A stretch of DNA of 64,000 nucleotides from an uncultured Candidatus Saccharibacteria bacterium (GTDB lineage: Bacteria; Patescibacteriota; Minisyncoccia; Phycocordibacterales; DATDWN01): the NCBI GenBank assembly GCA_964603545.1, contig CAZRVD010000002.1, forward strand, positions 46,854-110,853. The letters run 5' to 3'. The position numbers and the translations under genes are program-made. Shown here in pieces: positions 47,353 through 60,835 of the stretch (the first letter of the stretch is position 1; the number at the start of each line of letters is the position of its first letter). Under the pieces are notes generated by a model. The model had not been told where the DNA came from. It saw only the letters and a list, made by a program, of their open reading frames with translations, and searched no databases.

Positions 47353-49356
47353 ATGAAAAGATTTTTTCCTTACATACTAATAATTACAATACTGACAGTA
47401 TTTTTTAATGTAACTCCAACAGTGGAAGCTCAGGCGGCAGTACCAAACCTACCCGCTTGTCAGTACATTGATTATATCGTTTATGTTCAAATAACAAATA
47501 AACCTTGTATTGGAACAGGAGTTTTTGATAAGGGAGTGGTGTACCAAGTTGATCCACCTGGATCAACTAGTTGGTTAGGATGTCTTACATTTGGCAGTTT
47601 CTCTAGCTGTCTTGTAAACGGCGCCACAAATGTACTAGCTAGTTTGCTATACACAGTGCTGACCATGGTATCGGCACTTTTGTGGATTGCGGGAACGCTT
47701 CTGGATTTTGTCCTGCGGTATACGATTGTCGACATGAAAAAACACCTGGATATGCTTACCGGCATAAACACCGCCTGGAAAGTTATAAAAGATTTGATGA
47801 ATATGGCCTTCATATTTATTTTAGTATATGAAGGAATAAAACTAATTATTGGACAGGGGAGTAGAGAGACCATTAAAAATTTTATTGTGGCAGTTGTTAT
47901 CGCTTCACTTCTGGTAAACTTCAGTTTGTTTTTTACAAAAGTACTTATAGATGCGTCTAACGTAGTGACTCTTGGTTTTTATGATTCAATTATAGACAAC
48001 ACGGCAATAACTGTTGGTGGTGGAACAACAGGCGGTGGCACAGGGGCCTCCAGATCTATAAGTGGTCTCTCAGTACCATTTATGAACGCTCTTGGTCTTT
48101 CTAGTTTTTGGTCTGGGGTGTCGTTTGATGCGATAAGAAGTCAGACTGGAGGAAATTTAAATATGATGATACTCCCACTTATGGGAATAATTCTGTTTCT
48201 AATAGTATCTTTTGTATTTTTTGCTGTAGCAATAATGTTCACTATTAGATATCTGACACTCATAATACTTCTCATCCTTTCACCAGTTGCATACATGGGA
48301 GCGGCTCTGCCTTTTATGAAAACCTATGCAGATGATTGGTGGAAATCACTTAACGGCCAACTTCTCTTCGGTCCAATATATATGGTAATGACTTGGGTTG
48401 TTCTACTTCTCATGTCTAGTTCTGGTTTTATAGTTAAGGGAAGTTGGGGAGATGTATTAAGTGGAGTAAACAACATTGGAACACCCTATGACCAACAGCC
48501 TATCAGTTTAGTTTTCAACTTCGTAATTATTATCGGACTTGTTATCGCATCACTGACAATCGCAAAAAGCACAGCAACCAAAGGTTCAAAACATATTGGA
48601 GAAGCAACAAAGAGACTGACCGCATTTGCGGGTGGAGCAGTGATGGGTGCGGGAGCTTCAGGTTTTAGAAGCACTATTGGACGTGCTGGCCAAGCTGTCG
48701 CTAGTAATCAATGGCTTCGTGATAGAGTACCTGATAGTCGAATAGCAAGAACATTAGTAAAAGCTGGTGAAAAAACTGGGGCTGCGAGTTTTGATGTTAG
48801 AGCTACTGAAATTGGTAAGGCAACTGGAACTGGTAAGGCAGGTGGCAAAGGTGGTTACCAAGCAGAAAGGGAGAAAAAAATTAATGAGAGAATGAAATTT
48901 GCTGAACAACTTTCAGACACCGTAACAGGAGCTGACGTTGAGGCGGAAATGGAGAGAAGGGGCTACGATAAAGTATCCAATGAAGGAAGGGTTAACGCAT
49001 ATGTTGTGGCTGGAAGATCAAGAGCTGACGCAACCGCTCTTGTTGCAAGAGAGGCAGAACGTGAAAGACGTGCAGCTCAAGTACAATTAATAGGTGACGC
49101 GGCTCAAAATACAACACTAAGACAGGAGCGATATTTACACAATCTAAGCCAAACAAGATGGTATACTCCAAATCTATATAGTGGAGTTTCTGAAGATGCA
49201 GAAGCGGCAAGAAGAATGCGCGAAGGTAAGAAAGCTAAAAAAGGAGGTGTAGCTAAACTAATAGCTGATTTTGCAGCAGCAGCCAAAGAAGAAGAGGGTG
49301 AGCAATCAGCAACAACCCCCGCTACACCTGCCACAGGAACACCACCAACACCATAA
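47353..49356 (+). CDS. VirB6/TrbL-like polytopic membrane protein (T4SS-like cluster)
   Basis: 667 aa. Signal peptide, at least 6 TM helices, and a C-terminal charged/Pro-Thr tail. It lies next to the VirB4 ATPase. Confidence 0.5.
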   Translation: MKRFFPYILIITILTVFFNVTPTVEAQAAVPNLPACQYIDYIVYVQITNKPCIGTGVFDKGVVYQVDPPGSTSWLGCLTFGSFSSCLVNGATNVLASLLYTVLTMVSALLWIAGTLLDFVLRYTIVDMKKHLDMLTGINTAWKVIKDLMNMAFIFILVYEGIKLIIGQGSRETIKNFIVAVVIASLLVNFSLFFTKVLIDASNVVTLGFYDSIIDNTAITVGGGTTGGGTGASRSISGLSVPFMNALGLSSFWSGVSFDAIRSQTGGNLNMMILPLMGIILFLIVSFVFFAVAIMFTIRYLTLIILLILSPVAYMGAALPFMKTYADDWWKSLNGQLLFGPIYMVMTWVVLLLMSSSGFIVKGSWGDVLSGVNNIGTPYDQQPISLVFNFVIIIGLVIASLTIAKSTATKGSKHIGEATKRLTAFAGGAVMGAGASGFRSTIGRAGQAVASNQWLRDRVPDSRIARTLVKAGEKTGAASFDVRATEIGKATGTGKAGGKGGYQAEREKKINERMKFAEQLSDTVTGADVEAEMERRGYDKVSNEGRVNAYVVAGRSRADATALVAREAERERRAAQVQLIGDAAQNTTLRQERYLHNLSQTRWYTPNLYSGVSEDAEAARRMREGKKAKKGGVAKLIADFAAAAKEEEGEQSATTPATPATGTPPTP

Positions 49357-49360
49357 AACC

Positions 49361-50260
49361 ATGGATACAGAAATAAAAAAAATCATTGAGGAAAGAATAA
49401 AAAAATTACCACCCAGTGTAGCGAAAGCTATTAGGGGTATCCCTTGGTTAGAGACAATAAAAAATATTGCAAAAAATAATAACCTTAGTGAAGATAAAGA
49501 AATATCATTAATAATTGAAACGACTATTTTAGTATACGGGATTGAATCTCCAAAAAAATATGCCGAAGATTTAATTGTAAACCTTGGGGTGGGGGATGAT
49601 TTAGCTGAAAAAATACTAAAGGAAATAGAAACTCAAATCCTTATTCCAATACAAACCCTTACTGGTGGTGTTGGCCCCACAGAAGAGCAGAAAAACTCAC
49701 TATCTATCTCGTCAGCAGAGACACGAGCCCGTGAAACAGCAAACAAATATAGCTTAACCAGTAGCCAAACAAATACTTTAGTAAATAATACACTCTCTTC
49801 AATTAGAAATGGCCAAAAAGTCTCTCCGGAACAGTTAGTAACAAATTTAAACATATCCAAACTCCTCGCTGAACAAATTACCTTAGACCTAGAAAAAAGA
49901 GTTTTTGAACATGCTGTCAAACAAGTTTCACCAGAAAAAAGAGAGGTAGAAAAACCCAAACCGGAAACTCCCTCAAAAATTCCAGAGATCAGGCCAGATA
50001 ACCTTCCTATGCAGGGCAGTAACTTTATCCCAACACCAAAACCAGCATTTCAAAACGAGACTTTGGATAAACAAAGGGTCGGAAACTCTTCTGGTATTGG
50101 AGTACCAAGATACGCGACAGACAACACTCCACCAATAGCTACTTCTCCAGCACCGAGTGCAAGAAATATTATAGAAAAGAAACTAAATGATATTACCGTT
50201 GGCAACAAACCACCAGAGACAAAGTACGAGAAGGATCCGTATAGAGAACCGTTAGGGTAA
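49361..50260 (+). CDS. Hypothetical protein
   Basis: The track ORF begins at 49271 and overlaps the preceding gene. The ATG at 49361 directly follows that gene's stop. Confidence 0.45.
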   Translation: MDTEIKKIIEERIKKLPPSVAKAIRGIPWLETIKNIAKNNNLSEDKEISLIIETTILVYGIESPKKYAEDLIVNLGVGDDLAEKILKEIETQILIPIQTLTGGVGPTEEQKNSLSISSAETRARETANKYSLTSSQTNTLVNNTLSSIRNGQKVSPEQLVTNLNISKLLAEQITLDLEKRVFEHAVKQVSPEKREVEKPKPETPSKIPEIRPDNLPMQGSNFIPTPKPAFQNETLDKQRVGNSSGIGVPRYATDNTPPIATSPAPSARNIIEKKLNDITVGNKPPETKYEKDPYREPLG

Positions 50261-50283
50261 ATAAAATGCTTTAAAATTTAACA

Positions 50284-50721
50284 ATGCGTTACCAAATACC
50301 ACAATTTATTGATGTAGAAGACAAAATCATTGGGCCCTTAACCCTAAAGCAATTCGTGTATCTTGCTGGTGGAGCTGGAATGGCTTTTGTTATTTATACT
50401 TATATACCTATATACATAGCTGTGATACTAATAGCTGTAGTGATACCGCTCTCTATTGCTCTAGCTTTTTATAAAATAAATAACAAACCATTCGTAGATT
50501 TTCTTGAATCTGCTTTCATGTTTTATACAAAACAAAACCTTTATATATGGAGAAAAGAGCAAAAGAAGATAGTAAAATCAGAAGCAGATGTGGCCAAAGA
50601 ATCTGCTCAAGTGTATGTACCAAGACTTTCCGATAGTAAACTGAAAGAATTGTCGTGGACCTTAGACATAAATGAAAATCTTAATCCATTAACCGGACAA
50701 AGTGGCAAAAATACAAAGTAA
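50284..50721 (+). CDS. Small two-TM membrane protein, PrgI/VirB3-like by context
   Basis: 145 aa with a hairpin TM pair (LAGGAGMAFVIYTYIPIYIAVILIAVVIPLSIALAFY), immediately upstream of the VirB4 pieces. Confidence 0.4.
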   Translation: MRYQIPQFIDVEDKIIGPLTLKQFVYLAGGAGMAFVIYTYIPIYIAVILIAVVIPLSIALAFYKINNKPFVDFLESAFMFYTKQNLYIWRKEQKKIVKSEADVAKESAQVYVPRLSDSKLKELSWTLDINENLNPLTGQSGKNTK

Positions 50722-50759
50722 CTTAAAGTTTTCTATTATAATTCTGATATAATAATGGC

Positions 50760-51392
50760 ATGGCTGTAAATTCTAAAGCAACACAAGAATTCGTTCCGAT
50801 AAAAGAAGTCAGAGATGGTATTGCTGTGCTCAAAGATGGCTCCATGCGAGGTATTGTTTTGTCTTCTTCTCTAAACTTTAGCCTAAAATCGGAAGACGAG
50901 AGAAAAGCTATTGTTCTACAGTTTCAAGACTTTTTGAATTCTCTAGACTTCAGCGTACAGATATCTATTCAATCAAGAAGACTGGATATACGGCCATACA
51001 TAGCCCTTTTAGAGGACAGGTACAAGGAACAAACCAATGACTTAATGAAAATTCAGACCAGAGAATACATTGATTTCATAAGAAAGTTTACAGAAACAAC
51101 AAACATAATGACCAAAAGTTTCTTTGTCGTTGTGCCATATGATCCAGCTCTTATAAATATAAAAAGTGGTACTGGATTTTTCAAAAAAACATCTGTAAGT
51201 GAAGATCAGATTAAAAAAGAAGCTTCTTTTGAAGAAAACCGGACTCAGTTAGAGCAAAGAGTCTCTGTTGTAGAACAAGGTCTCTCAAGATGTGGAATAA
51301 GAGTAATAAGACTGGGAACAGAAGAAGTTATTGAGCTTTTCTATAAGATATTTAATCCAGGGGATACAGAAAAACCAATTAAATCATCATAA
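50760..51392 (+). CDS. VirB4/TrsE-family conjugation-type ATPase, N-terminal fragment (separated from remainder by one in-frame TAA)
   Basis: 210 aa. EFVPIKEVRDGIAVLKDGSMRGIV resembles the VirB4 N-terminus. It is in the same frame as 51399-53210. Confidence 0.6.
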   Translation: MAVNSKATQEFVPIKEVRDGIAVLKDGSMRGIVLSSSLNFSLKSEDERKAIVLQFQDFLNSLDFSVQISIQSRRLDIRPYIALLEDRYKEQTNDLMKIQTREYIDFIRKFTETTNIMTKSFFVVVPYDPALINIKSGTGFFKKTSVSEDQIKKEASFEENRTQLEQRVSVVEQGLSRCGIRVIRLGTEEVIELFYKIFNPGDTEKPIKSS

Positions 51393-51398
51393 AAAAAC

Positions 51399-53210
51399 AT
51401 GGGAATATTTGATTTTTTAAAAAAGAAAAAAGAGGAGCAGGAAATTTCAACAATTCTCCCACAAGAGATATATGATTCTAGTACTCTTGAATTGAAAGAC
51501 GTCATTGCTCCAAGCGCTCTAAAGGTTACCCCGAAAGAAATCAACCTTGGTGAAAAAGTTTTACGAAGTTTCTTTGTTATCTCATACCCAAGATACCTTT
51601 CTGATAGTTGGTTTTCTCCAATAATTAACTTGGATAAGATATTCGATATTTCAATATTTGTTAAACCCATAGATACGGCGGGAGTTCTGCGCACCTTTCA
51701 AAAAAAAGTGGCTGAGGTCCAGAGTCAGATAAATACCAGAGAAGCAAAGGGGTTAGTTAGAGACCCGATGCTAGATACTGCCTACCAAGATCTTGAGAAC
51801 CTTCGAGACAACCTCCAGCAGGCTCAGGAAAGACTTTTTGACGTCGGGCTTTATATTACGATGTACGCAGATTCTAGTGAAGAATTGGACAAAGTAGAGT
51901 CAGAAATAAAATCAATACTAGAAGCAAAACTTGTATATCTCAAACCCGCACTTTTCCAACAAGAACAAGCTTTTAAAGCTGCAATACCAATAGCCACAGA
52001 TGGACTCGAGGTTTACAGCAAATTAAACTCTTCACCATTATCTAGTTTGTTTCCATTTGTTTCATTTGATCTTACTTCTGACAAGGGGATTCTTTACGGA
52101 ATAAATCGTCACAACTCATCCCTTGTTTTGTTCGATAGGTTTTCTTTGGAAAACTATAACTCCATAACATTTGCAAAATCTGGTGCAGGAAAATCCTACA
52201 TGACTAAGATAGAAATTCTTAGAACATTAATGTTTGATACTGATGTTATGGTGTTGGACCCTGAAAGAGAGTACGAATACCTAGCAGAAGCTGTTGGGGG
52301 AAGATATTTTAATATTTCTCTAAACTCTGAACACCACATAAATCCTTTTGAACTTCCAACTCCTGGAGAAGACGAGTCATTCGCAAACGTACTTCGCTCA
52401 AATATCATAAACCTTGTCGGTCTTTTCCGTATCATGATGGGAGGACTGACCCCAGAAGAAGACGCTATTATAGACAGAGCAATAACAGAAACTTATGCAC
52501 TTAAAGACATTACAGCAGACTCAAACTTTGAAAATGTAGAGCCCCCACTACTTTCAGACTTTGAACTCGTTCTTTCTGGAATGGAGGGGGGAGACTCTCT
52601 AGCACAGAGACTAACAAAATATACTAGAGGTACTTGGGCAGGGTTTATAAACAGACCGAGTAATGTTGATATAAATAAAAGATTTATCGTCTTTTCTCTT
52701 CGCGACATGGAAGATGAGCTCAAGCCTATCGCCATGTACATCATAATGCACTATATATGGAACATGATAAGAAAGAAGTTAAAGAAGAGACTTCTTGTTA
52801 TAGATGAGGCTTGGTGGATGATGAAATCCGAAGACACAGCTTCTTTCCTTCTCTCTCTTGCAAAAAGAGGAAGAAAATACTATCTAGGACTTGCTACAAT
52901 AACCCAAGACGTTGATGACTTCTTAAAATCCCCTTATGGATTGCCCATTATAACAAACTCTTCTATTCAAATACTTTTGAAACAATCCCCAACAGCTATA
53001 GACAAACTACAACAAGCCTTTAGTTTAACTGATGAAGAAAAATATCTGTTATTAGAATCTGATGTTGGAGAGGGAATATTCTTTGCTGGATTAAAACACG
53101 TAGCTATAAAGGTTATCGCTTCATATACTGAGGATCAAATAATAACATCAGACCCTTCACAAATTTTATCGATTAAAAAGGCTAGGGTTGATTTAGAAAA
53201 TAGTAAATAA
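51399..53210 (+). CDS. VirB4/TrsE-family conjugation-type ATPase, C-terminal portion
   Basis: 603 aa. Walker A FAKSGAGKSYMTK and Walker B LLVIDEAWWMM. Confidence 0.8.
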   Translation: MGIFDFLKKKKEEQEISTILPQEIYDSSTLELKDVIAPSALKVTPKEINLGEKVLRSFFVISYPRYLSDSWFSPIINLDKIFDISIFVKPIDTAGVLRTFQKKVAEVQSQINTREAKGLVRDPMLDTAYQDLENLRDNLQQAQERLFDVGLYITMYADSSEELDKVESEIKSILEAKLVYLKPALFQQEQAFKAAIPIATDGLEVYSKLNSSPLSSLFPFVSFDLTSDKGILYGINRHNSSLVLFDRFSLENYNSITFAKSGAGKSYMTKIEILRTLMFDTDVMVLDPEREYEYLAEAVGGRYFNISLNSEHHINPFELPTPGEDESFANVLRSNIINLVGLFRIMMGGLTPEEDAIIDRAITETYALKDITADSNFENVEPPLLSDFELVLSGMEGGDSLAQRLTKYTRGTWAGFINRPSNVDINKRFIVFSLRDMEDELKPIAMYIIMHYIWNMIRKKLKKRLLVIDEAWWMMKSEDTASFLLSLAKRGRKYYLGLATITQDVDDFLKSPYGLPIITNSSIQILLKQSPTAIDKLQQAFSLTDEEKYLLLESDVGEGIFFAGLKHVAIKVIASYTEDQIITSDPSQILSIKKARVDLENSK

Positions 53211-53221
53211 AAACGAACAAA

Positions 53222-53647
53222 ATGGACAAAGAACCTCAAATCAAAGACACTGTAGCGTTTCTAATGATATTTACCGCTCTTTTTTTTGATGCCTTACAAG
53301 CTTTAATTGGATGGATACCCATGGTCGGAAACGTCATTTCTGATGTGATTAGTATATTTGTATTTATGACTTTTTTGTTGTGGTTCCACATGTATGGGGT
53401 AAAAATGATGACCCCAAAAAGATTCACGTCCCTAGGACTAGGAGGTGTCATTGAAATGATTCCTTATGTAAACCTACTTCCGGCATGGACTCTTGTCGTT
53501 ATTTACCTTATTGGAACAACCAAAATTAAAGAGTTGTTTGAAAAAAACCCAGGAGTGGCTGGTTCGATATTTAGGCTTGGTGAAAAAATAAAAAACCTGA
53601 ACAAAACCGGGGAGCCACCACACGTACCGCTCATAGACGAGCGTTAA
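53222..53647 (+). CDS. Hypothetical membrane protein
   Basis: 141 aa with 3 TM helices. Confidence 0.45.
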   Translation: MDKEPQIKDTVAFLMIFTALFFDALQALIGWIPMVGNVISDVISIFVFMTFLLWFHMYGVKMMTPKRFTSLGLGGVIEMIPYVNLLPAWTLVVIYLIGTTKIKELFEKNPGVAGSIFRLGEKIKNLNKTGEPPHVPLIDER

Positions 53648-53709
53648 TTGTCGAGAACTTTGTGAATAACAAAAGGCCACTAAAAAATGATTATGGTATT
53701 ATTATAAAG

Positions 53710-54740: not shown

Positions 54741-55607
54741 ATGAAAAAAAATATAAAAAAAATAATACCCATAATTACACTGATCATCATGTTAGTGCCA
54801 GGATTTTTTGGAGTGTACGCCCAAACTCCACCACCGAACAACCCGACCCCTTATACCGTACTAACAACACTACCAGGAATAGGGACCCAAACAACACTAA
54901 CTAGTTATCTGCCAGCGGCCTTTAATTTAGCTATTGGTATAGCTGTTGCTCTCGCTTTCGTTATGATTACTTTTGGTGGAGTAACTTACGCCACATCGGA
55001 CGCAATAACAGGCAAGGCAAAAGGAAGGGAGTATATTGAAGATGCATTATGGGGATTGCTTTTAGTAATTGGATCATATGTAATATTAAACACCTTAAAT
55101 CCGCAAATTCTTAACTTTAGTCTGCGTTTTGACAGACCAACTGTACCAGTCTCTAGCGTAACTTTAATCGCAGGAACTCCACTAGACCCCGCAGCCAGAG
55201 CTGATGATGCCTCTGTTAGAGCTACTCTGGTTGGCATAGGAATAAATCACCCCCCTTGTCTTGCTGGAGAAACACAAGGATGTACAAACGTTAACGGACT
55301 TCCAGCTGGGGCTGTTACTGGCCTCTTAACACTGAAGAAGGCATGCAATGGCTGTACTATTATGATAACTGGTGGAACTGAAGGTGGACATGCAACTCAC
55401 GGGCCAGGAAAGCAAATCGTAGACCTAAGGCCTGAAAACGCTTTAAATTATTATATTTGGGGGGATGGCAACACCCCGCCAGACGGAACAACAAGAACAA
55501 AAAACTTACCTAACGGTCAGTCAATAAAGTTTGTTTATGAAACGGCAGGAGGAAATGTCAGGGGAACTTCAACGGGAGCGCATTGGCATACTGTAATATC
55601 AAATTAA
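54741..55607 (+). CDS. T4SS pilin-like (signal peptide + two TM) protein fused to a C-terminal Gly/His-rich domain
   Basis: 288 aa. The N-terminal half has a signal peptide, a Pro-rich linker, and AIGIAVALAFVMITFGG...ALWGLLLVIGSYVILN. Confidence 0.4.
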   Translation: MKKNIKKIIPIITLIIMLVPGFFGVYAQTPPPNNPTPYTVLTTLPGIGTQTTLTSYLPAAFNLAIGIAVALAFVMITFGGVTYATSDAITGKAKGREYIEDALWGLLLVIGSYVILNTLNPQILNFSLRFDRPTVPVSSVTLIAGTPLDPAARADDASVRATLVGIGINHPPCLAGETQGCTNVNGLPAGAVTGLLTLKKACNGCTIMITGGTEGGHATHGPGKQIVDLRPENALNYYIWGDGNTPPDGTTRTKNLPNGQSIKFVYETAGGNVRGTSTGAHWHTVISN

Positions 55608-56829: not shown

Positions 56830-57549
56830 TTAAACTACTGCGATGGATTTATGATATTTTCTCTTTATGTAGAGCTCTTGAACAATAGAAAATAAGTTAC
56901 TGACAAAGAGATATAGGGCAACGGCAGAGGAGATGTTATATATAATAATTGTTATAAATGGTGGTAGAAAATATTTCATTTGGAAAGACATAGCCTTTGC
57001 CATTTCACTCTGTTTACTTTTGTCTTGTGACTCTGTCTGACCAGAAGTAGCTATGCTTGTTTGAAAGTAAGTAGTAATACCAACAAGGAGAGCCAGGATT
57101 AGACTTTTTTCTGCCATATTTATAAGTCCTAAGAACATCATATCTACAGAAGGTGGAATAGAAATAAAACTATATAGAAGACTTGTGTTTATTTCCGGTA
57201 GTCCTATAAATACCCTATAAAGACCAATAAGAATTGGTATTTGAATAAGAATAATAAAAATACCAGTGAATGGATTCATCCCTTTTTCCTTATAGTACTC
57301 CATTATCTTCACCCCTTGTTCGTTTTTGTCTTTATATTTTTCCTTAATAAGAGCAAGATCTTTTTCTGCACTCTTCATCTCGAGTTGGGACCTGGAAGCC
57401 TTGATGGAGAGGGGAAGTAGTACAAGTTTGGTAATGATAGTAAATATAATAATCACCACACCAACATCAAAAAATGGTAGTAGGTTTATTAAAAATACAA
57501 GGCCACTATATAGTGGCTCGGATATGATGGTGTGAAATATTGATGTCAT
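56830..57549 (-). CDS. yidC: Membrane protein insertase YidC (short form)
   Basis: 239 aa with 5 TM helices, in the rpmH-rnpA-yidC synteny. Confidence 0.85.
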   Translation of the reverse strand: MTSIFHTIISEPLYSGLVFLINLLPFFDVGVVIIIFTIITKLVLLPLSIKASRSQLEMKSAEKDLALIKEKYKDKNEQGVKIMEYYKEKGMNPFTGIFIILIQIPILIGLYRVFIGLPEINTSLLYSFISIPPSVDMMFLGLINMAEKSLILALLVGITTYFQTSIATSGQTESQDKSKQSEMAKAMSFQMKYFLPPFITIIIYNISSAVALYLFVSNLFSIVQELYIKRKYHKSIAVV

Positions 57550-57553
57550 TTGA

Positions 57554-57901
57554 CTATATTATCACAAGAGTAGAAGAAAGTAATCCGTTGATCTCTTTCT
57601 CTAACAGAGAATAGTCCTTTTCAAAACCCTTTTTATATAAAAAGAACACAAAAAACCCAGGTTTAATCTTTTTCAAATTTCTGCTAATCACAGAATATCC
57701 TCGCCTTCTAAGTTTATTTCTGTCTACTGCTCTTTTTAAAACCTTTTTAGAAACCGAAAAGGAGAACTTGCTGTCTGGCAAACCATTGCCTACATCCATT
57801 TTAGCTAAATAAAGGGTAAAGGAAGGAGAATTATACCTCTTTCCTTGGCTCATTATTTGACCAAAATATTTTCTCTCTATTCTTCTTTTTTTAGGCAACA
57901 T
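57554..57901 (-). CDS. rnpA: Ribonuclease P protein component
   Basis: 115 aa with the basic RNR motif KKVLKRAVDRNKLRRR. Confidence 0.85.
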   Translation of the reverse strand: MLPKKRRIERKYFGQIMSQGKRYNSPSFTLYLAKMDVGNGLPDSKFSFSVSKKVLKRAVDRNKLRRRGYSVISRNLKKIKPGFFVFFLYKKGFEKDYSLLEKEINGLLSSTLVII

Positions 57902-57933
57902 TTTGTATAGAAGTATAGTGGGTCTAAGGAGAA

Positions 57934-58071
57934 TTAGACGGTAGAAAGTTTAGTCCGACCCTTTCTTCTTCTTCTAAGGAGTGTGTTTTGCCCTGTTTTT
58001 GACTTACTTCTGGTTAGAAATCCGTGAGCTCTTGCTCTTTTTCTCTTTTTCGGTTGATATGTTTGCGACAT
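57934..58071 (-). CDS. rpmH: 50S ribosomal protein L34
   Basis: Minus strand reads [45 protein letters not shown]. It is below the ORF-track cutoff. Confidence 0.9.
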
Positions 58072-58182
58072 GTTTTAATGTTTAAAATTTATTGTTATTA
58101 ACACCTTGTACACACATTATTAACATAAATGAATGTATTTAACAAGTGCTATCTTTTTTTCTTTTCTATATAATATGAAACT

Positions 58183-59523
58183 ATGATGGAAAACAAAAAG
58201 CTTTGGGATGGTGTCTTGGTTGAAATGGAGTTAAATCTATCCAAACCAAACTTCAATACTTGGTTCAAAGACACATTTATAGTTAAACAAGAGAACGGCG
58301 CGGTTCACCTTGGAGTCCCAAACACTTTTGTACAAGACTGGCTCAGTAGTAAATTCCACAACACCATCCTAAAAGCCTTAAGAAACATCTCCAGTAACGT
58401 CCAATCACTACACTACACTATCTCTAGGGAAGACATGAAAGAGAGAGCTTTATCAGAGAAACCCCAACAAACCACAAGGGAGTTACCGATCGCAGATACC
58501 TATATAAATAAGGAAGACAATCTTAACCCTAGATACACCTTTGATACTTTTGTGGTCGGGCCATTTAATGAATTTGCCCACGCAGCCAGCCAAGCAGTAA
58601 TTAAAAAACCTGGAATAGTTTACAACCCGCTATTTGTTTATGGGGGAACTGGACACGGAAAAACTCACCTTATACAAGCCATGGGTAATTACTTAAAAAG
58701 TTCTGGGAATAGAAAAGTTTTTTATACTACTTCAGAAAAGTTTTCTCAGGAACTCGTTAATGCCATACAAGCAAACAGGCCAAACTTTTTTAAGGAGAAA
58801 TACAGAAAATATGATGTTTTAATAATGGATGATGTTCAGTTTTTCTCTGGAAAAATGAAAACCCAGGAAGAGTTGTTCCATTTGTTTAATCATTTATACG
58901 AGAACAACAAACAGATAATCTTCTCCTCAGATAAGCACCCAGCCCTGATCCAAGACCTTGAAGATCGCCTCAAATCCAGATTTAGTGCTGGAATGACTGT
59001 AGACATACCCACACCAGACAATGAGTCCAGAATTGCCATTATTAGAGCTAAATTGAACAGTAGTGAGTATCCGCTGTCTAAAGAGGTTATTGAGTATCTA
59101 GCATACTCAATAAATGGAAACATTAGGGAACTAGAAGGAATAATAAACTCAATAACCTGCCAGTCACAACTTAAAGGTAGAGAACTTTCACTTTCAGAGG
59201 TTAAAAATTTTGTTAAAAACAACACTAGACCTAAAAAAATAATTTCAATAAAAGAGGTTGTCAAAACTGTTTCTGATTTTTATAACATAGAAGAACAATT
59301 AATTTACGACAAGACTCGCAAAAAAGAGATTATAAAACCTCGACAAATAATCATGTATATCTTACGTGAAGATTTTAACATCTCTTTCCCTGCAATAGGG
59401 GAAAAACTTGGTGGAAGAGATCATACAACCGTTATGCACTCGTGTGAAAAAATTAAAAATGATGTAAAAACAGACGAACTTTTACTACAAGAGATAAACC
59501 AACTGCGGTCTATCTTTGTGTAA
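58183..59523 (+). CDS. dnaA: Chromosomal replication initiator DnaA
   Basis: 446 aa. Walker A GGTGHGKTHL, box VII, and the C-terminal DNA-binding HTH (GGRDHTTVMH). Confidence 0.95.
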   Translation: MMENKKLWDGVLVEMELNLSKPNFNTWFKDTFIVKQENGAVHLGVPNTFVQDWLSSKFHNTILKALRNISSNVQSLHYTISREDMKERALSEKPQQTTRELPIADTYINKEDNLNPRYTFDTFVVGPFNEFAHAASQAVIKKPGIVYNPLFVYGGTGHGKTHLIQAMGNYLKSSGNRKVFYTTSEKFSQELVNAIQANRPNFFKEKYRKYDVLIMDDVQFFSGKMKTQEELFHLFNHLYENNKQIIFSSDKHPALIQDLEDRLKSRFSAGMTVDIPTPDNESRIAIIRAKLNSSEYPLSKEVIEYLAYSINGNIRELEGIINSITCQSQLKGRELSLSEVKNFVKNNTRPKKIISIKEVVKTVSDFYNIEEQLIYDKTRKKEIIKPRQIIMYILREDFNISFPAIGEKLGGRDHTTVMHSCEKIKNDVKTDELLLQEINQLRSIFV

Positions 59524-59734
59524 AAGATTGTGTATAGTGTGTATATAAGTTCTTGGTAATATTGTAAAAAGTGTTAATTGTTTAAGTAGATTTATAGGTT
59601 TTATATCTTTATATATAACTTATTAACATTTCAAATCATATAAAATGGCTAATATTAAGGATATATTAATCTTTTCCAGTTTTACACAGGATATATAATA
59701 ATTAATCTTAAAAGAAATAAATTAAACTAATACT
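59524..59734. other. Candidate oriC / DNA unwinding region (dnaA-dnaN intergenic, extremely AT-rich)
   Basis: By position, between rpmH-rnpA-yidC, dnaA and dnaN. Only degenerate DnaA-box-like 9-mers are present: TGTGTATAG, TGTGTATAT and TTTTACACA, each 2 mismatches from TTATCCACA. Confidence 0.45.
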
Positions 59735-60835
59735 ATGAACATAGAATGTATTAAGGACAAACTTTCATACGCTATTGGAAAAGCTGAAAAAATTACAGGT
59801 AAAAATATTACACTACCTATATTAGGTTGTGTACTCCTTGAGGCTGACAAATCAACATTAACAATAAAAGCTACAAATTTAGATTTAGGTATAGAGATAA
59901 ATATTCCTGTAAAGGTAATAAAACCAGGAAAAGTAGCTGTTTCTGGTTCGGTTTTGTATAATTTTATATCAAACATAATTACTGATAAAAATGTTTCTTT
60001 GGAGGTTGTAGATGGAAATTTAAAAGTGTCAACAAAACATTCAGAATCAACAATAAAATCATTCCCAATTGATGATTTTCCAAATATTCCAAAAGTGTCT
60101 AGTGATAATCCTTTTACATTTAACGCTCCAAATTTAATAAAAGGATTAAAATCTGTAATGTATAGTTCTTCCGTTTCAACAATAAGGCCGACACTTTCTA
60201 GTGTTTTGGTTTTATCTGAAGACGAAGAGGTTGTTTTTGTCGCAACAGACTCCTTTAGGTTGGGAGAAAAGAAGATTGGAGTAAAAAAACACAAAGATTT
60301 TAATCAAATTCTTATACCCTTTAAAAACATAGGGGAGATTATAAGAGTTTTAGAAGATATAAAAGATGATGTTTTGGTTTTTCTAAATGAAAATCAAATA
60401 GCTTTTTCTTACGGAGATATATATATTACATCGAGGGTAATAGACGGTGTTTTTCCTGATTACAAACAAATAATTCCAAAAGATACAAAAACTGAGGTTA
60501 TAGTTTTAAAACAGGATTTCATAAGCTCTCTGAAAATATCAAACATTTTCGCTGATAAATTTAGTCAAGTCACTTTCTTTATCTCTCCCAAAAATAACCT
60601 TTTTAAAGTTTCAACAAAAAATATGGATGTAGGAGAAAGTATAAGTAATATAGATGCGGTTTTAAAAGGGGAAGAATTATCTATAAGTTTTAACTATAAA
60701 TATATAGTAGACTGTTTTCAATCTATAGACAGCGATAGCATCTCTCTTTCTTTTTCTGACGCAAACAAACCAATGGTAATAAGAGGGGTTTCGGATAAAT
60801 CATTTCTCTACCTGGTTATGCCGATGAATAAATAA
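59735..60835 (+). CDS. dnaN: DNA polymerase III beta sliding clamp
   Basis: 366 aa with the three-domain beta-clamp pattern, downstream of dnaA. Confidence 0.9.
   Translation: MNIECIKDKLSYAIGKAEKITGKNITLPILGCVLLEADKSTLTIKATNLDLGIEINIPVKVIKPGKVAVSGSVLYNFISNIITDKNVSLEVVDGNLKVSTKHSESTIKSFPIDDFPNIPKVSSDNPFTFNAPNLIKGLKSVMYSSSVSTIRPTLSSVLVLSEDEEVVFVATDSFRLGEKKIGVKKHKDFNQILIPFKNIGEIIRVLEDIKDDVLVFLNENQIAFSYGDIYITSRVIDGVFPDYKQIIPKDTKTEVIVLKQDFISSLKISNIFADKFSQVTFFISPKNNLFKVSTKNMDVGESISNIDAVLKGEELSISFNYKYIVDCFQSIDSDSISLSFSDANKPMVIRGVSDKSFLYLVMPMNK

What the first reader, a model, noticed from the sequence alone, without database searches (positions are those of the whole stretch)
50760..53210. VirB4-family ATPase interrupted by a single in-frame TAA inside an A7 run
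ORFs 50760-51392 (VirB4-like N-terminus, EFVPIKEVRDGIAVLKDG) and 51399-53210 (Walker A GAGKSYMTK, Walker B VIDEAWW) are in the same reading frame. Only TCA-TCA-TAA-AAA-AAC-ATG separates them. Joined, they give ~815 aa, the usual VirB4 length. Four explanations are possible: a fresh nonsense mutation (pseudogene in the making), a sequencing or assembly error at the homopolymer, programmed stop-codon readthrough, or a genuinely split two-chain VirB4 with translational coupling through the ATG 2 codons after the stop.
Basis: seen in the sequence. Interest (0 to 1): 0.6.

Follow-up and report, generated by a model that had tools for sequence, protein, structure and literature searches.

The report
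Naturally two-gene VirB4 secretion ATPase
The "interrupted" VirB4 ATPase is the normal two-gene form of this secretion motor (a small TrsD-like N-terminal protein plus the ATPase) found across Patescibacteria, so the in-frame stop is a real gene end and the shared reading frame is a coincidence.

Summary
ORF 50760-51392 (210 aa) and ORF 51399-53210 (603 aa) share a frame and are separated only by TAA + AAAAAC, and joined they match full-length VirB4 profiles collinearly.

It is not an interruption. In 78 of 78 informative orthologous loci from different Patescibacteria species, the first gene ends with a stop at the same place and the second starts with ATG (MGIFD...). The spacers run from -1 to 523 nt. 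Only 18 of 78 pairs are in frame, against the one in three expected by chance. Six loci have a whole extra gene inserted between the halves.

Of the 150 best distant cluster representatives of the N-piece, 149 are stand-alone proteins. One, from Ca. Colwellbacteria, is a natural fusion. Two independent assemblies reproduce the junction base for base.

The same order (VirB3-like, TrsD, VirB4) and the same break point occur in Staphylococcus plasmid pSK41. A 2025 paper already reports TrsD, a remote homologue of the VirB4 N-terminus, as the commonest type IV secretion component of Patescibacteria, usually next to virB4.

Pseudogene, assembly error and readthrough are rejected. Translational coupling is plausible but unproven. 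Ordinary and already known.

The parts
50284..50721 (+). PrgI/VirB3-like small membrane protein gene, directly upstream of the pair
   Evidence: Pfam PF12666 PrgI, E 8.4e-11, 42.7 bits against a cut-off of 27. The gene calls in independent contigs L082 and L083 agree.
50745..50753 (+). Extended -10-like box TGATATAAT ending 6 nt before the ATG of the N-piece gene. It is a candidate promoter for a leaderless trsD-like/virB4 transcript.
   Evidence: The sequence was read directly. A -10-like box ends 6-9 nt (12 nt in one locus) upstream of the orthologous ATG in 57 of 77 loci, 28 of them with TGn. The rate is 3.6% at random positions and 7 of 78 at the virB4 start. The generic promoter scan did not flag it because there is no -35 hexamer. 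Function is inferred.
50760..51392 (+). TrsD-like gene: a stand-alone protein (210 aa) homologous to the first ~200 residues of fused VirB4 proteins
51390..51398 (+). Genuine stop codon TAA plus a 6-nt untranslated spacer AAAAAC. The A7 run lies at 51391-51397.
   Evidence: The junction is identical in ENA and Logan assemblies. Spacer length and sequence vary freely among orthologues, from -1 to 523 nt.
51399..53210 (+). virB4 ATPase chain (603 aa): the second half of the VirB4 N-terminal domain plus the C-terminal ATPase domain. Conserved N-terminus MGIFDFLKKKKEEQ (51399-51440), Walker A at 52182-52196, Walker B at 52797-52817.
   Evidence: NF045971 conju_CD1110 at 376 bits (cut-off 325), profile positions 180-733 of 752. 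Pfam P-loop_TraG at 4.5e-29. In the PDB search with the joined sequence, residues 441-797 (about 228-584 of this chain) match VirB4 CTD 4ag5_A at 7.3e-39. The chain aligns from residue 3 with residue 2 of pSK41 TraE/VirB4.

Best explanation
These are two real, separately translated genes of a chromosomal type IV secretion system in a Parcubacteria/Paceibacteria-type Patescibacterium. The first gene (50760-51392) encodes a TrsD-like protein that corresponds to the first ~200 residues of the N-terminal domain of single-chain VirB4 ATPases. The second gene (51399-53210) encodes the rest of that domain plus the Walker A/B ATPase domain.

The split is old. It is shared across Patescibacteria, and it falls at the same break point as in the staphylococcal pGO1/pSK41-type conjugation system. 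That the two ORFs share a frame in this genome is a one-in-three coincidence created by a 6-nt spacer.

The following steps are inferred, not shown. The two chains assemble non-covalently into a VirB4 equivalent, with the TrsD-like piece supplying the part of the N-terminal domain that, in solved Gram-negative systems, mediates VirB4 dimer contacts and contacts to VirB3 and VirB8. The pair is transcribed from a -10 box that ends 6 nt before the first ATG, which would make the mRNA leaderless. The second cistron has no Shine-Dalgarno sequence and starts 6 nt after the stop, so it is probably often translated by re-initiating ribosomes, giving roughly equal amounts of the two chains.
For: 1. A stop at the homologous position and a downstream ATG start occur in 78 of 78 informative loci from distinct GTDB species (65-91% identity). 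Spacers run from -1 to 523 nt and the stop is TAA, TAG or TGA. The N-piece is 205-223 aa. The complete C-pieces are 599-634 aa, apart from three that carry an intein and one that is frameshifted.
2. Only 18 of 78 pairs are in frame.
3. Six loci carry a complete extra gene between the halves: five a 23S_rRNA_IVP gene and one a PDDEXK_3 gene.
4. Of the 150 best 50%-identity cluster representatives, 149 are stand-alone proteins of 146-443 aa, and some have long disordered tails.
5. One natural fusion, a 797-aa protein from Ca. Colwellbacteria in three MAGs, is collinear with the joined window sequence at 50% identity. It keeps the 'MG' of the former start, so the two pieces work as one unit.
6. 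The two pieces cover VirB4 profiles in order and without overlap.
7. pSK41 has the order trsC, trsD, VirB4 with a 14-nt spacer, and its VirB4 N-terminus IMAFLKKKKQEQ aligns with IFDFLKKKKEEQ here.
8. The junction is identical in ENA and Logan assemblies.
9. PMC12102498 reports TrsD as the most abundant T4SS component in Patescibacteria: 2,272 homologues, 1,664 of them associated with VirB4, and essential in S. epibionticum.
10. For coupling and a leaderless mRNA: the spacer is at most 6 nt in 46 of 78 loci. SD-like motifs occur upstream of only 2 of 78 virB4 starts and 2 of 40 long window ORFs. A -10 box ends 6-9 nt (12 nt in one locus) before the first ATG in 57 of 77 loci, against 3.6% at random positions.
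Against: Nothing contradicts the two-gene reading. The mechanistic parts are weaker.

- No physical interaction between the two chains was tested.
- The direct BLASTP comparison of the N-piece with pSK41 TrsD is not significant. The NCBIfam TrsD score of 26.9 bits is far below the curated cut-off of 200.
- The local Pfam copy gave no hit for the N-piece, although precomputed tables list PF26593.
- Coupling cannot be obligatory, because 17 of 78 loci have spacers of 24-523 nt. A 6-nt spacer is also ordinary for this operon, where neighbouring spacers are 1-38 nt.
- SD motifs are rare genome-wide, so their absence here is not specific to this gene.
Confidence: 0.93

Rival explanations
1. Recent nonsense mutation: a single VirB4 gene that is turning into a pseudogene.
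For: The two ORFs are in frame, and joined they give a collinear protein of VirB4 length.
Against: The stop is at the same position in 78 of 78 orthologous loci, and 149 of 150 distant cluster representatives are stand-alone. Both pieces are highly conserved: the listed N-piece homologues are 80-100% identical, and 91 positions are invariant among 33 of them. The downstream piece always begins with its own ATG and a conserved MG(I/L)FD N-terminus. The TrsD homologue is reported as essential in S. epibionticum.
Confidence: 0.01
2. Sequencing or assembly error in the A7 homopolymer that creates a false stop.
For: Homopolymers are error-prone. One related long-read-style contig (L022) does show frameshifts inside virB4.
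Against: The stop arises from the T-A-A sequence, and an indel in the A-run would shift the frame rather than create this stop. Three assemblies (the window, ENA ERZ27284378 and Logan SRR8863434) are identical across the junction. All relatives have the stop.
Confidence: 0.01
3. Programmed stop-codon readthrough or other recoding that makes a fused 816-aa VirB4 in addition to the two chains.
For: The pair is in frame here, and a natural fused homologue in Colwellbacteria shows that a fusion can be functional.
Against: The pairs are in frame in only 18 of 78 orthologous loci, at or below the chance rate, and the two closest relatives are out of frame. The spacer carries no conserved sequence or structure. 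TAA, the commonest stop here, is an efficient terminator; this last point rests on established knowledge and was not tested.
Confidence: 0.02
4. The 210-aa protein is an independent accessory factor, not a detached VirB4 sub-domain. It would have its own function and only ancestral similarity to the VirB4 N-terminus.
For: [quoted passage not shown] Some homologues carry 100-230-aa disordered tails.
Against: The two pieces cover VirB4 profiles collinearly and without overlap. The genes are adjacent in all 78 loci examined. The Colwellbacteria protein is a natural fusion.
Confidence: 0.1

Closest known systems
TrsD + VirB4 pair of Patescibacteria T4SS (Quinonero-Coronel et al. 2025, Microb Genom, PMC12102498)
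   Same: The organism group, the gene pair and the context all match. The context here is a PrgI/VirB3-like gene upstream, a pilin-like gene downstream, and a cluster next to dnaA/dnaN. The paper reports 2,272 TrsD homologues, 1,664 of them associated with VirB4, and describes TrsD as remotely homologous to the VirB4 N-terminal portion.
   Different: Nothing substantive differs; this locus is one instance. The details added here were not found in the passages of that paper that I read: the spacer and frame statistics, the break point shared with pSK41, the Colwellbacteria re-fusion, the cassettes inserted at the junction, and the leaderless-type -10 box.
TrsD/TraD + TrsE/TraE (VirB4) of staphylococcal conjugative plasmids pGO1/pSK41 (MPF_FATA, pGO1 subclass)
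   Same: The order is a small upstream gene (trsC position), then TrsD (227 aa), then VirB4 (672 aa), with a 14-nt spacer. The VirB4 chains align from their very N-termini at 24% identity, E 1e-35. The N-pieces align over their full length by profile comparison, E 5.2e-5.
   Different: The N-piece is very divergent: BLASTP is not significant and the NCBIfam score is far below the cut-off. The pSK41 system is a plasmid conjugation system, whereas this one is chromosomal, sits next to the origin, and belongs to a type reported as essential for the epibiotic lifestyle. The pSK41 gene in the trsC position showed no BLASTP similarity to the window PrgI-like protein.
Single-chain VirB4 ATPases (CD1110 family, TraC of F, TrwK of R388)
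   Same: Domain order and motifs match. The joined sequence matches TIGR00929 from positions 4 to 724 of 792. The CTD matches 4ag5 and TrwK.
   Different: Those proteins are one polypeptide of about 750-890 aa. Here the first ~200 residues are a separate chain.

Membership tests
VirB4-like conjugal transfer ATPase, CD1110 family (NF045971) | Score above the curated cut-off (325 bits) | tested here: met
   The C-ORF alone scores 376.1 bits and the joined sequence 397.2 bits.
VirB4-like conjugal transfer ATPase, CD1110 family (NF045971) | Walker A and Walker B motifs of the ATPase domain | tested here: met
   GAGKS at 52182-52196 and VIDEAWW at 52797-52817. The CTD matches 4ag5_A at 7.3e-39.
VirB4-like conjugal transfer ATPase, CD1110 family (NF045971) | N-terminal domain and ATPase in one polypeptide (profile positions 1-752) | tested here: not met
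   The C-ORF covers profile positions 180-733. Positions 2-119 are on the separate 210-aa protein. The split is conserved in 78 of 78 loci.
VirB4-like conjugal transfer ATPase, CD1110 family (NF045971) | T4SS gene context (VirB3/PrgI-like neighbour) | tested here: met
   A PrgI gene lies at 50284-50721 (PF12666, above the cut-off). There is a weak T4SS_pilin hit at 54741-55607.
TrsD/TraD family conjugative transfer protein (NF041427) | Score above the curated cut-off (200 bits) | tested here: not met
   26.9 bits, E 3.8e-6, covering only residues 7-127. The homology is remote, not membership by NCBI's threshold.
TrsD/TraD family conjugative transfer protein (NF041427) | Full-length similarity to a prototype (pSK41 TrsD) | tested here: inconclusive
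   BLASTP is not significant. hhalign with a shallow alignment gives E 0.083. With a 61-sequence alignment it gives probability 67%, E 5.2e-5, over 173 columns (8-201 against 34-217).
TrsD/TraD family conjugative transfer protein (NF041427) | A ~200-230-aa protein encoded immediately upstream of virB4 | tested here: met
   The window protein is 210 aa with a 6-nt spacer. The pSK41 protein is 227 aa with a 14-nt spacer.
Pfam PF26593 (TraC-like) | Pfam match | tested here: inconclusive
   Precomputed tables list PF26593 for the identical protein P0001 and for all 120 listed homologues. The local Pfam-A scan returned no family at E <= 0.01.
Programmed readthrough / recoding site | In-frame relation and a recoding signal conserved among orthologues | tested here: not met
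   18 of 78 pairs are in frame. The spacer varies in sequence and in length from -1 to 523 nt.
Pseudogene (nonsense-disrupted gene) | Orthologues carry an uninterrupted gene | tested here: not met
   0 of 78 species loci are uninterrupted. Only 1 of 150 distant cluster representatives is fused.

The most novel reading that the evidence does not exclude
The detached TrsD-like chain could be a deliberately separate subunit rather than a passive fragment. It would be made from a leaderless mRNA, with virB4 translated by re-initiation 6 nt downstream. The conserved N-terminal peptide of the ATPase chain (MGIFDFLKKKKEEQ, shared with pSK41 TraE and deleted in the Colwellbacteria fusion) would act as the docking element that re-joins the two chains. 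This would give an experimentally tractable function to TrsD, which has none assigned. A far less likely variant is that low-level readthrough of the in-frame TAA in this strain yields a minor fused isoform.
Probability: 0.3. Interest if true: 0.35.

Novelty: already known. Interest (0 to 1): 0.12.

Why it matters
For the scan, this removes a false alarm. An in-frame stop between two halves of a familiar protein looks like a pseudogene, an error or recoding, but here it is the conserved native architecture. Annotation pipelines that flag it as a "disrupted VirB4" would be wrong.

Biologically, the Patescibacteria T4SS is reported to be essential for the epibiotic lifestyle, and TrsD has no assigned function. 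The evidence gathered here gives a concrete hypothesis: TrsD is the detached first half of the VirB4 N-terminal domain. That evidence consists of collinear complementary coverage of VirB4 profiles, a break point shared with pSK41, and a natural re-fusion. The locus itself adds no new kind of system.

Tried and rejected
- Sequence search of the N-piece against PDB chains found nothing relevant, either as a single sequence (only chance-level hits, E about 0.5) or as a 61-sequence profile (no hits).
- BLASTP of the N-piece against pSK41 TrsD, and of the PrgI-like protein against the pSK41 gene in the trsC position, was not significant.
- hhalign with the shallow (>80% identity) alignment was uninformative. 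The diverse alignment was needed.
- The generic sigma-70 and terminator scan of 49300-53700 found no more sites than shuffles and no terminator between the two ORFs. It missed the -10-only box that the orthologue comparison revealed.
- The absence of a Shine-Dalgarno sequence before virB4 was considered as evidence for coupling. It was discounted because SD-like motifs are rare throughout the window, in 2 of 40 long ORFs.
- Guglielmini 2014 (PMC4027160) was checked for an explicit TrsD statement, and the name is not in its main text.
- A first version of the junction script mis-called L052 (spacer -71). This was corrected by inspection to a 10-nt spacer.
- A structure prediction of a joined or fused protein was not attempted, because only window or homologue-search sequences may be submitted.

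Full report
**1. Observation**

The window holds an ORF from the ATG at 50760 to the TAA at 51390-51392 (210 aa). A second ORF runs from the ATG at 51399 to 53210 (603 aa) in the same frame. They are separated by TAA AAA AAC, and an A7 run starts at 51391. The quoted peptides and the Walker A (GAGKS, 52182-52196) and Walker B (VIDEAWW, 52797-52817) motifs are present. Sharing a frame carries no statistical weight by itself, since it happens by chance one time in three.

**2. What the two ORFs are**

- The 603-aa ORF scores 376 bits on NCBIfam NF045971 (VirB4-like conjugal transfer ATPase, CD1110 family; cut-off 325). It covers only profile positions 180-733 of 752.
- The 210-aa ORF matches positions 2-119 of the same profile (E 3.6e-7) and positions 101-233 of the mycoplasma VirB4 profile (E 3.9e-11). 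It also matches the stand-alone TrsD/TraD family, at E 3.8e-6 and 26.9 bits, far below that model's cut-off of 200.
- With the stop replaced by X, the joined sequence aligns to TIGR00929 VirB4_CagE as one stretch (4-764 to 4-724 of 792). Its matches to the TraC and VirB4_plasma profiles also cross the junction. The two ORFs are therefore complementary, collinear pieces of a VirB4.
- In a PDB sequence search with the joined sequence, only residues 441-797 match solved VirB4 C-terminal domains (4ag5, 7.3e-39; TrwK, 8e-9). The 603-aa chain therefore still holds the second half of the N-terminal domain, and the 210-aa chain is the first half.

**3. Context**

- Upstream lies a PrgI/VirB3-like gene (50284-50721, PF12666). 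Downstream are small and medium ORFs, one with a weak T4SS-pilin hit.
- yidC and rnpA (56830-57901, minus strand), dnaA (58183-59523) and dnaN (59735-60835) follow.
- The identical 210-aa protein is deposited as a hypothetical protein of "Parcubacteria group bacterium Gr01-1014_46".
- This is the chromosomal, origin-proximal T4SS described for Patescibacteria in PMC12102498.

**4. Is the split conserved?**

The 210-aa protein has at least 8000 homologues (the scoring limit). The best 120 (80-100% identity) are 210-216 aa long, apart from one of 254 aa.

I fetched 80 loci from distinct GTDB species (65-91% identity) and located the end of the first gene and the start of the second in each. Two loci end too early to be informative. 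The other 78 show the following:

- Every locus has a stop at the homologous position (59 TAA, 15 TAG, 4 TGA), and each has a downstream ATG, most opening with MG(I/L)FD or a close variant (MSxxD/G).
- The spacers run from -1 to 523 nt. The commonest lengths are 1 nt (14 loci), 4 nt (13) and 5 nt (7).
- Only 18 of 78 pairs are in frame (23%; binomial p 0.055 against one third, so there is no enrichment).
- The two nearest relatives (91% and 88% identity) have 5-nt spacers and are out of frame.
- Six loci carry a complete extra gene between the halves. Five carry a 23S-rRNA-intervening-sequence protein gene (PF05635 confirmed for the three scanned) and one a PDDEXK_3 gene. Each insert is flanked by inverted repeats.
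- At least one locus with a 97-nt spacer (L058) retains the 3' end of such a cassette, and three others with 97-122-nt spacers may be similar remnants.

At greater distance, 149 of the 150 best 50%-identity cluster representatives (37-93% identity) are stand-alone proteins of 146-443 aa. Some have long Pro/Gln/Ala-rich tails. The single exception, P0198 (797 aa), comes from Ca. Colwellbacteria and is seen in three MAGs. It is a natural fusion, collinear with the joined window sequence at 50% identity. It retains the "MG" of the former start codon and lacks about 25 residues of the ATPase chain's N-terminus. This looks like a secondary re-fusion, and it is Rosetta-stone-type evidence that the two chains act together.

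**5. Artefact check**

An ENA assembly (ERZ27284378) and a Logan assembly (SRR8863434) carry the identical junction, with the same two gene calls.

**6. Comparison with known systems**

Staphylococcus aureus plasmid pSK41 has the same order: a small gene in the trsC position, trsD (227 aa), then the VirB4 gene (672 aa), with a 14-nt spacer. The window ATPase chain aligns with pSK41 VirB4 from the very N-terminus (IFDFLKKKKEEQ against IMAFLKKKKQEQ; 24% identity, E 1e-35). The break point is therefore shared, which argues for one ancient fission rather than independent events.

The N-pieces are very divergent. BLASTP is not significant. Profile-sequence hhalign with a 61-member alignment gives E 5.2e-5 and probability 67% over nearly the full length.

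[quoted passage not shown] It counts 2,272 homologues in 2,221 assemblies, 1,664 of them associated with VirB4. It also states that no function is assigned, and that the homologue in S. epibionticum ML1 is essential. A 2025 review (PMC12857230) summarises that VirB4 N-terminal domains link the protomers of VirB4 dimers, embed in the membrane, and contact VirB3 and VirB8. By inference, that is the role the TrsD-like chain would contribute to.

**7. Expression**

- SD-like motifs are almost absent: 2 of 40 long ORFs in the window, 3 of 77 trsD-like starts, and 2 of 78 virB4 starts. The lack of an SD before virB4 is therefore not informative on its own.
- A -10-like box ends 6-9 nt (12 nt in one locus) before the trsD-like ATG in 57 of 77 loci, 28 of them with an extended TGn. 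The rate is 3.6% at random positions and 7 of 78 at virB4 starts.
- In the window the box is TGATATAAT at 50745-50753, 6 nt before the ATG. This suggests a leaderless transcript that begins at the first gene of the pair, with virB4 as an internal cistron.
- No terminator-like site lies between the two ORFs.
- With spacers of at most 6 nt in 46 of 78 loci, termination-reinitiation coupling is plausible. But 17 of 78 loci have spacers of 24-523 nt, and the 6-nt spacer is unremarkable within this operon (1-38 nt). Coupling remains an inference.

**8. Verdict**

The feature is real, but it is the ordinary, previously described TrsD-like + VirB4 two-gene architecture of Patescibacteria T4SSs. Pseudogene, assembly error and programmed readthrough are rejected. 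Novelty is "already known" and interest is low.

Noticed in passing
L016:4644-8441, L021:4709-8509, L025:4652-8443 (related loci, not the window): In three related species the VirB4 ATPase chain is 1264-1267 aa. A ~663-aa intein sits inside the Walker A motif (GAGK|S...VHN|S), with Pfam Intein_splicing and LAGLIDADG_3 hits.
   Followed up: partly
L006:4640-5060, L024, L027, L056, L075, L079 (between the trsD-like stop and the virB4 start); remnant in L058, possibly also L010, L023, L026: The trsD/virB4 junction is a recurrent insertion site for small cassettes of 411-523 nt, flanked by 12-17-nt inverted repeats. They encode 23S-rRNA-intervening-sequence proteins (PF05635) or a PDDEXK_3 protein. 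L058 (97-nt spacer) keeps the 3' end of such a gene, and three other 97-122-nt spacers may be remnants. Whether the stems are RNase III sites that would cut the mRNA between the two cistrons is unknown.
   Followed up: partly
window 50745-50753, and the equivalent position in 57 of 77 related loci: A conserved (TGn)TATAAT box ends 6-9 nt (12 nt in one locus) before the ATG of the trsD-like gene, which implies a leaderless mRNA. SD-like motifs precede only 2 of 40 long ORFs in the window, so this lineage seems to initiate translation largely without Shine-Dalgarno pairing.
   Followed up: partly
window 56830-60835: yidC and rnpA (minus strand), then dnaA and dnaN (plus strand), lie directly downstream of the T4SS cluster. 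The cluster therefore sits next to the replication-origin region, as PMC12102498 reports for many Patescibacteria.
   Followed up: partly
P0198 / MBI3088895.1 / MBI2506916.1 (Ca. Colwellbacteria): This is a natural single-chain (797 aa) version of the pair. It keeps the Met-Gly of the former virB4 start and lacks about 25 residues of the ATPase chain's N-terminus, so it is probably a secondary re-fusion.
   Followed up: partly
P0185, P0209, P0219 (distant homologues of the N-piece): Some TrsD-like proteins carry low-complexity Pro/Gln/Ala/Gly-rich C-terminal tails of about 200 residues after the conserved domain.
   Followed up: no
L022:4625-6445: virB4 in this related contig is broken by frameshifts (tblastn matches fall in three frames). 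The contig name suggests a long-read assembly, so this is probably homopolymer error. It is a contrast to the clean junction in the window.
   Followed up: no
window 49271-50260 vs 49361-50260: The mechanical ORF list starts this gene at a TTG that overlaps the upstream gene by 86 nt. Gene calls on the independent contig L082 start it at 49361 (299 aa), 4 nt after the upstream stop. Neither this protein nor the upstream 667-aa protein matches any Pfam or NCBIfam family, although both sit inside the T4SS cluster.
   Followed up: no
window 50760-51389: The local Pfam-A scan gave no hit for the 210-aa protein, yet precomputed tables assign PF26593 (TraC-like) to the identical sequence. This may be a release or threshold difference.
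   Followed up: no
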